Positions 33,001-36,000 of a stretch of 38,682 nucleotides of DNA are shown in pieces. How positions within the stretch are numbered: the first letter of the stretch is position 1; the number at the start of each line of letters is the position of its first letter. Source of the stretch: Escherichia phage Gally; sequence record OV696608. One strand, written 5' to 3'. A program made the position numbers.

Positions 33001-36000
33001 CGCTGAGTTGGTTGGTAAGCGTCATGACAATGTGAAACGTACCATCGAAACGCTGGCTAAAAATGGTGTTATCCGGCTTCCTCAAATTGAGGTTTCCGAA
33101 AGAATCAATAACTTAGGGTTCAATGTTCAGTACGAGCATTACGTCTTCGAAGGCGAACAAGGTAAGCGAGATAGTATTGTTGTTGTTGCCCAGTTGTCGC
33201 CGGAATTCACCGCTCGTCTTGTTGACCGTTGGCGAGAGCTTGAAGAAGCTGCGGTTAATATCCCCAAAACGCTACCAGAAGCGTTGCGCCTTGCTGCTGA
33301 CCTTGCTGAGCAGAAAATGCAACTGGAAAACCAGCTCGCAATTGCCGCACCTAAAGTTGAGTTTGCCGATCGTGTTGGCGAGGCCAGCGGAATTTTGATT
33401 GGAAACTATGCAAAGGTTGTTGGTATTGGTCCAAACAAACTGTTTGCATGGATGCGCGATCACAAAATCCTTATTGCTTCAGGTTCCCGGCGCAATGTGC
33501 CAATGCAGGAATATATGGATCGCGGCTATTTCACAGTGAAAGAAACAGCGGTCAATACAAATCACGGAATACAGATATCGTTCACCACAAAAATCACCGG
33601 GCGTGGTCAACAGTGGCTGACCAGAAAGCTGCTCGATAACGGAATGCTGAAAGTAACAGGGGAGGCTGCTTAATGGCTAACCTACGCAAAGAAGCGCGAG
33701 GCAGAGCATGCCAGGTACGTATTTACGGCATATGCAATGGCAACCCTGAAACTACAGTTCTGGCACATTACAGGATGGCTGGAATTTGCGGAACGGGAAT
33801 GAAGCCTGACGACCTGATCGGTGCATGGGCTTGTAGTGACTGCCACGCGGAGATCGACCGACGCACAATGATTCTCGACAACAAAGACGCCAGACTTTAC
33901 CACCTCGAAGGCGTGATCAGGACGCAGGCGATACTGCTGAAGGAGGGGAAGATTAAGTCATGAACGAATATCAGTTTGTGCTTCCATACCCGCCGTCGGT
34001 GAATACCTACTGGCGAAGACGGGGAAGCCAATACTACATCAGCGATAAAGGCCAGAAATACCGAAAAGACGTTCAGCAAATCATCCGCCAACTCAAGTTA
34101 GATATTTTCACCAAATCACGACTCCGCATCAAAGTCATCGCAGACGTTCCAGACTCCCGCCGCCGCGACCTCGATAACATCCTGAAAGGTTTACTCGACT
34201 CACTTATCCACGCCGGATTTGCGGAAGACGACGAGCAATTCGATGACATTCGCGTAATTCGTGGTGTGAAAGTACCAGGCGGAAGGCTTGGAATAAAAAT
34301 CACCGAACTGGAGAACGCATGAACGCCACAATTCAAACGATACCAGAGCTTCTTATCCAGACACGAGGCAATCAGACCGAAGTGGCGAGGATGCTTTCCT
34401 GCGCAAGAGGAACAGTGCTCAAGTACAACCGAGACAGCAAAGGTGAGCGTCACATAATAGTTAACGGCGTCCTGATGGTCAAACAGGGCAAAAGGGGAAG
34501 GCCATGAGACTCGAAAGCGTAGCTAAATTTCATTCGCCAAAAAGCCCGATGATGAGCGACTCACCACGGGCTACGGCTTCTGACTCTCTTTCCGGTACTG
34601 ATGTGATGGCTGCTATGGGGATGGCACAATCACAGGCCGGATTCGGGATGGCTGCATTTTGCGGTAAGCACGAACTCAGCCAGAACGACAAACAAAAGGC
34701 TATCAACTATCTGATGCAATTTGCACACAAGGTATCGGGGAAATACCGTGGTGTGGCAAAGCTCGAAGGAAATACTAAGGCAAAGGTACTGCAAGTGCTC
34801 GCAACATTCGCTTATGCGGATTATTGCCGTAGTGCCGCGACGCCGGGTGCAAGATGCAGAGATTGCCACGGTACAGGCCGTGCGGTTGATATAGCCAAAA
34901 CAGAGCAGTGGGGGAGAGTTGTCGAGAAAGAGTGCGGAAGATGCAAAGGCGTCGGCTATTCAAGGATGCCAGCAAGCGCAGCATATCGCGCTGTGACGAT
35001 GCTAATCCCAAACCTTACCCAACCCACCTGGTCACGCACTGTTAAGCCGCTGTATGACGCTCTGGTGGTGCAATGCCACAAAGAAGAGTCAATCGCAGAC
35101 AACATTTTGAATGCGGTCACACGTTAACAGCATGATTGCCACGGATGGCAACATATTAACGGCATGATATTGACTTTTTGAATAAAGTTGGGTAAATTTG
35201 ACCAAACGATGGATAAATGCACTCGTTAAATAAAGCCCTGAGTTAATAGCTCGGGGCTTTTTGCGTTTTAATCACGACCTTTCTGAAAGCACATCAACCC
35301 AAATACCAGACAGACAAAAATAATCACCTTATCCGCTGTGGCTACGGTGCGGTGTGCTTTGCATAAAAGAAAACCAGCGTAATGGCTGGCTTCGTGAAAG
35401 CGGGTGGCGTGAGGTTGCGCTAACAACCTCCTGCCGTTTTGCCCGTGCATATCGGTCACGAACAAATCTGATTACTAAACACAGTAGCCTGGATTTGTTC
35501 TATCAGTAATCGACCTTATTCCTAATTAAATAGAGCAAATCCCCTTATTGGGGGTAAGACATGAAGATGCCAGAAAAACATGACCTGTTAGCCGCCATTC
35601 TCGCGGCAAAGGAACAAGGCATCGGGGCAATACTTGCGTTTGCAATGGCGTACCTTCGCGGCAGATATAATGGCGGTGCGTTTACAAAAACAGTAATCGA
35701 CGCAACGATGTGCGCCATTATCGCCTGGTTCATTCGTGACCTTCTCGACTTCGCCGGACTAAGTAGCAATCTCGCTTATATAACGAGCGTGTTCATCGGC
35801 TACATCGGTACTGACTCGATTGGTTCGCTTATCAAACGCTTCGCTGCTAAAAAAGCCGGAGTAGAAGATGGTGGAAATCAATAATCAACGTAAGGCGTTC
35901 CTCGATATGCTGGCGTGGTCAGAGGGAACAGATAACGGACGACAGAAAACCAGAAATTATGGTTATGACGTCATTGTAGGTGGTGAGCTATTCACTGATT

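What the first reader, a model, noticed from the sequence alone, without database searches (positions are those of the whole stretch)
35170..35262. Lambda-type pR'/Q but with a terminator only about 55 nt downstream
pR' and the adjacent qut region are almost identical to lambda, and Q is lambda Q. In lambda the constitutive pR' transcript terminates about 194 nt downstream (6S RNA). Here a hairpin plus T-run follows about 55 nt after the predicted start, and the Q-to-S interval is about 170 bp shorter than in lambda. Downstream, the lambda-like GGCAGGAGG...CCTCCTGCC hairpin is mutated on one arm (GGCGTGAGG). This implies a much shorter constitutive leader RNA.
Basis: partly seen in the sequence, partly recalled or inferred. 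Interest (0 to 1): 0.45.

Follow-up and report, generated by a model that had tools for sequence, protein, structure and literature searches.

The report
P22-type short late-leader terminator
This phage has lambda's late-gene switch (Q protein and promoter pR') but stops the unswitched transcript after about 58 bases instead of lambda's 194; this arrangement is already annotated in phage P22 and is common in its relatives, so it is real but ordinary.

Summary
Q (34504-35127) matches lambda Q at 206 of 207 residues. pR' (35170-35198), the Q-binding element and the AACGAT pause element match lambda almost exactly. A strong hairpin (35232-35260) with a U5 tract (35258-35262) sits at +28 to +58 from the start (35205, placed by homology).

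Lambda's 6S body and tR' are absent. A 161-bp unrelated segment (35229-35389) replaces 404 bp of lambda, so the Q-S interval is 243 bp shorter, not about 170.

The short-leader interpretation is supported but not new. The same promoter, leader and terminator are annotated in P22 ("t late or t R'") and phage Emek. They also occur in HK022, HK97, the mEp phages and Sf101, and in 265 of 5426 complete E. coli genomes. The stretch is identical to a prophage of E. coli LF82. Among sequenced phages the short form is at least as common as lambda's long form.

The "mutated" GGCGTGAGG hairpin falls within normal family variation.

One side result: directly downstream of tR' (35271-35401) lies a conserved, covarying plus-strand RNA structure of about 125 nt. 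It is absent from lambda and from Rfam, and its function is unknown.

The parts
34504..35127 (+). Q, the late-gene antiterminator (207 aa)
   Evidence: ORF. 206/207 identical to lambda Q and 202/207 identical to P22 gp23.
35170..35198 (+). Late promoter pR' (-35 TTGACT at 35170-35175, -10 TAAATT at 35193-35198). The Q-binding element at 35176-35196 lies in the spacer.
   Evidence: Promoter scan. Hexamers identical to lambda; the Q-binding element has 2 mismatches. The same element is annotated as pR'/qut in HK140, P22-pbi and epsilon34.
35205..35210 (+). Transcription start (35205, inferred) and the -10-like sigma70 pause-inducing element AACGAT (+1 to +6). The pause is expected near +16/+17 (35220-35221).
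   Evidence: +1 placed by colinear alignment with the annotated '5'-nucleotide of P late RNA' in P22-pbi. AACGAT is identical to lambda. The pause position is inferred from what is established for lambda pR' and was not tested.
35232..35262 (+). tR' (t late): an intrinsic terminator. Stem 35232-35260 with G-C core 35235-35242 / 35250-35257, U5 tract 35258-35262, and a second U4 at 35266-35269.
   Evidence: Terminator scan. Fold z = -4.65. Homologous to the annotated terminators of P22 and Emek. Present at the same distance in every lambda-type-pR' variant examined.
35205..35264 (+). Predicted constitutive leader RNA of about 58-60 nt, made when Q is absent
   Evidence: Inferred from the start and terminator positions. 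Not measured.
35229..35389 (.). Mosaic segment (161 bp) that replaces 404 bp of lambda (6S body, tR', the LPR2 region and beyond)
   Evidence: Alignment with lambda. Lambda 6S and LPR2 probe sequences are absent.
35271..35401 (+). Conserved structured RNA domain of the late leader. Helix 1: 35273-35277 with 35392-35396. Helix 2: 35280-35284 with 35368-35372. Helix 3: 35286-35295 with 35351-35360. Hairpin 4: 35335-35339 with 35344-35348. Hairpin 5: 35374-35378 with 35385-35389. The loop between the helix 3 strands is CA-rich and G-poor.
   Evidence: 71 unique variants: 97.3% of cells paired against 31-53% in slid controls, and 7 pairs changed on both sides. There are 240 G.U cells against 30 A.C cells, which points to the + strand; loop composition is C 35%, G 6%. 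Covariance model scores 142.5 bits here and finds nothing in lambda. No Rfam hit.
35402..35444 (+). Hairpin shared with lambda: stem GGCGTGAGGTTG 35406-35417 with CAACCTCCTGCC 35424-35435, then GUUUUG, closed by GGGU 35402-35405 with GCCC 35441-35444.
   Evidence: The central stem position is polymorphic across 132 loci; the U-run is not conserved in P22-type variants.
35561..35884 (+). S holin gene, the first gene of the late operon
   Evidence: ORF. Annotated as a lambda-family holin in relatives.

Best explanation
This is the P22/HK022-type version of the lambda-type late-gene switch.

pR' fires constitutively. RNA polymerase pauses at about +16/+17 on the -10-like AACGAT element.

Without Q, polymerase terminates at the intrinsic terminator tR' (hairpin +28 to +56, U tract +54 to +58). 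This releases a leader RNA of about 58-60 nt instead of lambda's 194-nt 6S RNA.

When Q is made from the early right operon, it binds the Q-binding element between the -35 and -10 hexamers. It loads onto the paused polymerase and makes it resistant to tR', so transcription continues through a structured leader of about 300 nt into S, R, Rz and the virion genes.

The difference from lambda is a mosaic module swap: 161 bp replace 404 bp. It is neither a mutation of lambda's terminator nor a new mechanism.

Shown here by sequence: identity of Q, the promoter, the Q-binding element and the pause element; the hairpin, its stability and its conservation; homology to annotated terminators; absence of lambda's 6S and tR'.

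Inferred: the start site, the pause position, termination efficiency, and Q-dependent read-through.
For: - Q is 206/207 identical to lambda Q. P22 gp23 is 202/207 identical to it. The literature states that the lambda and P22 proteins substitute for one another (PMC8022706, read) and that they share the qut target (PMC2629481).
- The promoter and pause element are identical to lambda.
- The terminator has 13 pairs plus a U tract. The fold is -23.3 kcal/mol with z = -4.65.
- P22 records annotate the homologous hairpin as t late / tR' / tQ, and annotate the 5' nucleotide of the late RNA 30 nt upstream of it. The same scanner finds that hairpin in P22. Emek annotates it as a rho-independent terminator.
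- Every lambda-type-pR' variant recovered from phage records and IMG/VR keeps the hairpin at the same distance.
- 67 phage records match at least 80% of a query running from the end of Q across the whole Q-S interval to the start of S. The pR'-to-structured-element stretch is found in 265 of 5426 complete E. coli genomes and is 100% identical in E. coli LF82.
- Sy et al. 2020 (PMC7547250) state that short, antitermination-regulated RNAs are made from the late promoters of phages 21, phi80, 82 and P22.
Against: - Nothing was measured for this sequence: not the RNA 3' end, not termination efficiency, not Q dependence.
- The U tract has only 5 U before a G. Some relatives have weaker versions: HK022 has one stem mismatch, and epsilon34 and others have U4.
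- The hairpin shows little compensatory variation. It is conserved mostly by identity, so comparative data do not prove the structure independently.
- The stem is flanked by an A-rich run upstream, so it could also terminate leftward transcription.
- The 1976 P22 work that underlies the annotation could not be read here.
Confidence: 0.9

Rival explanations
1. The short leader RNA is more than a by-product. It is a trans-acting, Hfq-binding small RNA expressed in lysogens, as shown for StxS of Stx phages and suggested for lambda 6S RNA. The module swap would then exchange one regulatory RNA for another.
For: - pR' is constitutive in lambda-type phages.
- The predicted RNA has an A/U-rich single-stranded stretch (UUAAAUAAA) ahead of a terminator hairpin with a U tail.
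- The initial transcribed region is nearly invariant across about 30 variants.
- StxS is a precedent (PMC7547250).
- Lambda 6S RNA and LPR2 are reported to be Hfq-bound (bioRxiv 10.1101/2024.10.31.621285).
Against: - Invariance of +1 to +27 is already explained by the requirements of Q loading and pausing.
- Only 5 U in the tail.
- No target, no Hfq data and no Rfam family.
- This reading adds to the terminator explanation and does not exclude it.
Confidence: 0.2
2. The hairpin at 35232-35260 mainly acts as a leftward or bidirectional terminator that shields Q and the nin region from antisense transcription. The real Q-controlled stop for pR' transcripts would lie further downstream, for example the hairpin at 35402-35444 with its GUUUU.
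For: - On the minus strand the stem is followed by UUUAUUUAA, so a bidirectional role is plausible.
- A second terminator-like hairpin faces leftward at 35393..35370.
- HK620 annotators placed tQ at a terminator about 640 bp downstream.
Against: - The rightward U tract (U5, then GCGUUUU) is the better one.
- HK620 also has the +28 hairpin intact, directly after qut.
- The U-run after the downstream hairpin is only U4. It is not conserved in P22-type variants and is enclosed by an outer helix.
- No leftward promoter is predicted between 35262 and 35560.
- The leftward 'terminator' at 35393..35370 is part of a plus-strand RNA structure: 240 G.U cells against 30 A.C cells.
Confidence: 0.07
3. The region is a degenerate, deleted derivative of lambda's leader in a decaying prophage, and the hairpin is a chance by-product.
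For: - The interval is 243 bp shorter than in lambda.
- The window matches a chromosomal prophage.
Against: - The 161-bp segment has no recognisable homology to the 404 bp it replaces, so this is replacement.
- The same module is carried by viable, plaque-forming phages: P22, HK022, HK97, HK140, the mEp phages and Sf101.
- The segment contains a covarying RNA structure.
- The hairpin's stability is far outside the shuffled distribution.
Confidence: 0.02

Closest known systems
Phage P22 late control region (gene 23, P late / pR', qut, t late / tR'), as annotated in AF527608 and X78401
   Same: - The same Q-type protein (202/207).
- The same promoter, qut and initial transcribed region.
- A homologous terminator hairpin at the same distance from the start.
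- The same structured leader downstream, about 80% identical over most of the interval.
   Different: - The loop of the hairpin differs (TTAATAG here, TTTAACCG in P22).
- The structured domain is a covarying variant.
- The last roughly 170 nt before the holin gene are lambda-like here, and the holin is lambda S where P22 has gene 13.
Coliphages HK022, HK97, HK140, mEp234, mEpX1 and Sf101, and the E. coli LF82 prophage
   Same: The whole Q-S interval is 94-97% identical to these phages. The 241-bp pR'-to-structure stretch is 100% identical in LF82. HK140 and the mEp records annotate pR' and qut.
   Different: Only point differences. HK022 has one stem mismatch in tR'. Most of these records do not annotate the terminator.
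Lambda pR' - 6S RNA - tR'
   Same: Q, the pR' hexamers, the Q-binding element (2 mismatches), the pause element, the last 170 nt of the leader and S. It works the same way.
   Different: - Lambda terminates at +188 to +194 and makes the 194-nt 6S RNA.
- Lambda's segment also holds the LPR2 small RNA region and orf-64.
- All of these are absent here.
- Lambda lacks the structured domain found at 35271-35401.
StxS small RNA of Stx phages (pR' leader terminated at tR', processed to 74 nt)
   Same: The concept is the same: a constitutive pR' transcript is stopped at tR' in lysogens and yields a short RNA (PMC7547250).
   Different: - The Q type and the leader differ: 258 nt, processed by RNase E.
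- I made no sequence comparison with StxS, and nothing here suggests similarity.
- A regulatory role is shown for StxS but not for this RNA.

Membership tests
Lambda-type Q late-gene antitermination module | Q protein homologous to lambda Q | tested here: met
   206/207 identical
Lambda-type Q late-gene antitermination module | sigma70 promoter with the Q-binding element between the -35 and -10 hexamers | tested here: met
   TTGACT, 17 bp, TAAATT. The Q-binding element matches lambda at 19 of 21 positions.
Lambda-type Q late-gene antitermination module | -10-like pause-inducing element in the initial transcribed region | tested here: met
   AACGAT at +1 to +6 is identical to lambda. The pause itself was not measured.
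Lambda-type Q late-gene antitermination module | Intrinsic terminator between the pause site and the first late gene | tested here: met
   Hairpin 35232-35260 plus a U tract
Lambda-type Q late-gene antitermination module | Q-dependent read-through of that terminator | not testable with these tools
   Needs in vitro transcription or reporter assays
P22/HK022-type short late leader (P late - t late) | Terminator hairpin homologous to the annotated P22 t late, starting about 28 nt after the start site | tested here: met
   Alignment A2. P22 annotations. Constant spacing across variants.
P22/HK022-type short late leader (P late - t late) | A short leader RNA is actually produced in the absence of Q | not testable with these tools
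   Reported for P22 only at second hand: PMC7547250 cites Roberts et al. 1976
Lambda 6S RNA | 6S body sequence and tR' at about +188 to +194 | tested here: not met
   Alignment gap. The 6S probe sequence is absent with up to 3 mismatches.
Lambda LPR2 small RNA | Sequence complementary to the published LPR2 probe, just downstream of tR' | tested here: not met
   No match with up to 3 mismatches. Probe taken from bioRxiv 10.1101/2024.10.31.621285.
StxS small RNA | Sequence homology to StxS | not tested
Whether Rfam holds a StxS family was not checked, so the absence of Rfam hits here does not settle it.
Any Rfam 15 family (for the leader and the structured domain) | Covariance-model match | tested here: not met
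   No relevant match at E<=1 in 34000-36500. No gathering-score match anywhere in the window.

The most novel reading that the evidence does not exclude
The conserved structured RNA domain of about 125 nt that directly follows tR' (35271-35401) could be an undescribed cis-acting element of lambdoid late-operon leaders. It is absent from lambda and from Rfam. It is also found directly after the terminators of phages with unrelated Q genes.

Possible roles, none tested:
- It presents its CA-rich, G-poor loop as a Rho loading site that backs up tR' for polymerases lacking Q.
- Its stacked stem of about 20 bp is an RNase III or other processing site that sets the stability of the lysis-gene mRNA.

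In addition, the 58-nt leader RNA may be an Hfq-dependent small RNA in lysogens.
Probability: 0.3. Interest if true: 0.45.

Novelty: already known. Interest (0 to 1): 0.15.

Why it matters
The finding itself adds little, because the short pR'-tR' leader is the arrangement already annotated in P22. Two points of context are still useful.

First, lambda's 194-nt 6S RNA and the adjacent LPR2 RNA were recently reported to bind Hfq. Both lie in a mosaic segment that most phages with a lambda-type Q do not carry. Any function of those RNAs is therefore specific to the lambda lineage and is not part of the Q switch.

Second, the segment found in their place carries a well-supported structured RNA of unknown function. 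It lies in the leader of the lysis genes of P22, HK97 and HK022, three of the most studied phages. It is cheap to test.

Tried and rejected
- **Small protein genes in the replaced segment.** The minus-strand 65-aa ORF (35268-35465) has a hydrophobic 19-aa tail, MIIFVCLVFGLMCFQKGRD. In P22 that frame runs only about 10 codons, so I rejected it (reading). The plus-strand ORF annotated in epsilon34, VSe13 and NM-3 (69 aa) is closed in the window by a 1-nt loop difference. The 51-aa ORF at 35354-35509, annotated as hypothetical in HK140, is broken by 2-nt and 1-nt deletions in viable HK97.
- **tRNA or tRNA-like gene at 35000-35700.** None found.
- **Rfam.** No relevant hit.
- **Leftward small RNA ending at 35393..35370.** Rejected because the wobble pairs favour the plus strand 240 to 30.
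- **A diverged copy of the structured domain in lambda.** The covariance model finds none in lambda or in six lambda-type loci at E<=10.
- **Genome-contig scan with an 18-nt pattern of 16 specified bases.** The listed hits were in unrelated taxa, consistent with chance.
- **Older primary literature.** Vander Byl and Kropinski 2000, Guo et al. 1991 and Roberts 1975 are not held. A full-text search for the hairpin sequence found nothing. Searches for Luk and Szybalski 1983 and Daniels et al. 1988 returned only a citation of the latter.
- **Method caveat.** The simple terminator scanner misses lambda's genuine tR', so a negative result from it means little.
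Full report
**What is at the site**

The window carries, in order, RusA, NinH, Q (34504-35127), a 433-bp non-coding interval, then S (35561-35884), R and Rz. Q is 206/207 identical to lambda Q and 202/207 identical to P22 gp23.

- A sigma70-type promoter lies 43 bp after the Q stop codon: TTGACT at 35170-35175, a 17-bp spacer, TAAATT at 35193-35198.
- Against lambda both hexamers are identical. The 21-bp Q-binding element in the spacer differs at two positions. The -10-like AACGAT element that induces the sigma70-dependent pause in lambda is identical.
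- In the P22-pbi record the 5' nucleotide of the late RNA is annotated at the first A of AACGAT. P22 and the window are colinear here, so +1 is 35205.

**The hairpin**

- The terminator scan reports a 13-pair stem with 6 G-C pairs at 35232-35260, followed by TTGCGTTTTA.
- The 61-nt RNA from +1 folds at -23.3 kcal/mol. Dinucleotide shuffles average -11.1 (sd 2.6), giving z = -4.65, and none of 200 shuffles folds as well.
- The hairpin occupies +28 to +56 and the U5 tract +54 to +58.

**Comparison with lambda**

- Homology with lambda runs through about 35228 and resumes at about 35390. In between, 161 bp of the window stand in place of 404 bp of lambda.
- That lambda segment holds the body of 6S RNA, tR' (U tract at +188 to +193 on my count), orf-64, and the region probed as LPR2.
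- The Q-S interval is 433 bp against 676 bp, which is 243 bp shorter and not about 170.
- The two segments are not recognisably homologous, so this is a module replacement, not a deletion.
- The published probe sequences for lambda 6S and LPR2 have no match in the window with up to three mismatches.

**It is a known arrangement**

- A query running from the end of Q across the whole Q-S interval to the start of S matches 67 phage records over at least 80% of its length. Identity is 94-97% in HK140, HK544, ECP1, HK106, mEp234, Sf101, HK022, mEp213, mEpX1, HK97 and Salmonella phage Emek. It is about 80% in P22, epsilon34 and relatives.
- P22-pbi annotates 'P late or P R'', the qut site, the 5' nucleotide of the late RNA and, 30 nt downstream, 'terminator ... 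antiterminated by gene 23 protein ... t late or t R''.
- X78401 annotates the same inverted repeat as 'terminator tR'; terminator tQ'. Emek annotates it as a rho-independent terminator. The scanner used here finds it in P22 at the annotated place.
- The literature says the lambda and P22 Q proteins can substitute for one another (PMC8022706) and share the qut target (PMC2629481). It also says that short antitermination-regulated RNAs are made from the late promoters of 21, phi80, 82 and P22 (PMC7547250).
- In about 30 distinct lambda-type-pR' variants from phage records and IMG/VR, the initial transcribed region and the hairpin are nearly invariant and at constant spacing. A few carry slightly weaker versions: HK022 has one stem mismatch, and some have U4.
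- The stretch 35160-35400 occurs in 265 of 5426 complete E. coli genomes. It is 100% identical in E. coli LF82 and NRG857c, whose prophage has the same gene order. Overall the window is a P22-like mosaic related to Kapi1, CUS-3 and HK140.
- Lambda's long 6S leader is found over at least 80% of its length in only 30 phage records, most of them lambda or laboratory derivatives. The short form is at least as common a partner of lambda-type Q as lambda's own.

**The downstream 'mutated' hairpin**

In 132 loci that share this part of the leader, the fifth stem position is polymorphic: G-C in lambda; G.A, A.C or U.C mismatches in the commonest variants; and U-A or A-U in a few. Relative to lambda, the window has one wobble and one mismatch. 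It also gains a U-A pair where lambda has C.A. Its energy is -21.9 kcal/mol, against -25.0 for lambda and -22.6 for the two commonest variants. The U-run after the stem is only U4, is not conserved in P22-type sequences, and is enclosed by an outer GGGU/GCCC helix.

**How it most likely works**

The mechanism is that of lambda, with a shorter leader.

1. pR' is constitutive.
2. Polymerase pauses on AACGAT.
3. Without Q it terminates at +58 to +60.
4. With Q bound at the Q-binding element and loaded onto the paused complex, it reads through tR' and the roughly 300-nt leader into the lysis and virion genes.

The steps after the sequence comparison are inferred, not shown. These are the start site, the pause, termination efficiency and Q dependence. 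I give this explanation a confidence of 0.9.

The segment that replaces the lambda sequence is not filler. From 35271 to 35401 the plus strand can form a branched structure:
- a closing helix (35273-35277 with 35392-35396);
- helix 2 (35280-35284 with 35368-35372);
- a 10-bp helix 3 (35286-35295 with 35351-35360);
- a small apical hairpin (35335-35339 with 35344-35348);
- a side hairpin (35374-35378 with 35385-35389).

Support across 71 distinct variants:
- 97.3% of cells form standard pairs, against 31-53% when the partners are slid by 1-3 columns.
- Seven pairs change on both sides. Four of these are in helix 3, for example A-U 37, G-C 28, G.U 6 at one position and C-G 39, U-A 26 at another.
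- The covariation score exceeds all 500 shuffles.
- Wobble pairs read as G.U on the plus strand 240 times and as A.C 30 times. The structure is therefore in the late mRNA leader. It also means that the terminator-like hairpin the scanner reports on the minus strand at 35393..35370 is better read as a feature of the plus-strand RNA.

Limits and further features:
- The outer helices never covary, and RNAalifold offers an alternative pairing for them (UUUCUGAA with UUCGUGAAA). Only helix 3, hairpin 4 and hairpin 5 are supported by covariation.
- The loop between the helix 3 strands is 35% C, 42% A and 6% G.
- The domain also occurs directly after the different terminators of phages with unrelated Q genes, such as SE1, Salmonella phage SF6 and several IMG/VR contigs.
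- In HK620 it follows a second terminator that comes after an insertion of about 600 bp.
- A covariance model scores 142.5 bits in the window and 72-117 bits in divergent variants. It finds nothing in lambda or in six lambda-type loci.
- Rfam has no match.

Its function is unknown. A Rho loading site that backs up tR', or an RNase III or other processing site, are guesses consistent with its anatomy. From memory of the title alone, Daniels et al. 1988 mapped RNase III sites in the lambda late leader, but I could not read that paper.

**Verdict**

Novelty: already known, as the P22/HK022-type late control region. Interest is low (0.15). The structured leader domain is the only part that may be new, and it was not part of the finding.

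Noticed in passing
window 35271-35401 (+): A conserved branched RNA structure of about 125 nt lies directly after tR' in the late leader. Helix 3 covaries strongly across 71 variants, and the wobble pairs point to the plus strand. The loop between the helix 3 strands is CA-rich and G-poor. The structure is absent from lambda and from Rfam, and its function is unknown.
   Followed up: yes
window 35232-35260; L012 (SE1), L025, L100, L107: Phages with unrelated Q genes and promoters share the outer stem, the U tract and everything downstream of this terminator, but differ in the inner stem, the loop and the upstream sequence. The mosaic junction therefore lies at or inside the terminator hairpin.
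   Followed up: partly
L006 (HK620) 590-640 and 1222-1370: HK620 keeps the +28 hairpin right after qut. It then has an insertion of about 600 bp and a second terminator, which is the one annotated as tQ. That terminator abuts another covarying variant of the structured domain.
   Followed up: partly
L013 443-470; L006 1240-1255: In some variants the U tract of the preceding terminator itself replaces the UUUCU strand of helix 2 and can pair with the downstream A-run. This suggests a link between the terminator and the structured domain.
   Followed up: no
window 35402-35444 (+): The hairpin shared with lambda holds a perfect Shine-Dalgarno-like AGGAGG (GUGAGG here) paired with CCUCCU. Its central stem position is highly polymorphic and shows occasional compensatory pairs.
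   Followed up: partly
window 35354-35509 (+): This 51-aa ORF is annotated as a hypothetical protein in HK140, mEp234 and some E. coli genomes. It overlaps the RNA structures and is broken by 2-nt and 1-nt deletions in viable HK97, so it is probably not a gene.
   Followed up: partly
IMG/VR loci L014, L017, L023, L032, L040 and others: Lambda-type leaders often have tRNA-like 3' ends directly upstream of the shared CCACAACCCAAACTGAGCCGTAGCCACTGG... segment. Examples are GGTTCAAGTCCGTTAACCAGCACCA and GGTTCGATTCCGGCCGCCACA. This is the known tRNA slot of lambdoid late leaders.
   Followed up: no
L003 (lambda) about 1017-1051: The published probe for the Hfq-bound lambda small RNA LPR2 maps just downstream of lambda tR'. 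That places it, together with the 6S body, in the segment that is replaced in the window.
   Followed up: yes
window, whole; NC_011993.1 1014289-1016929: The window is a P22-like mosaic related to Kapi1, CUS-3 and HK140. Its Q-S region is identical to a prophage of adherent-invasive E. coli LF82 and of NRG857c. RefSeq annotates nothing between Q and S there.
   Followed up: partly
L003 (lambda) 920-981: The simple terminator scanner does not detect lambda's genuine tR', whose stem encloses a long insert. Negative results from that scanner are therefore weak evidence.
   Followed up: yes
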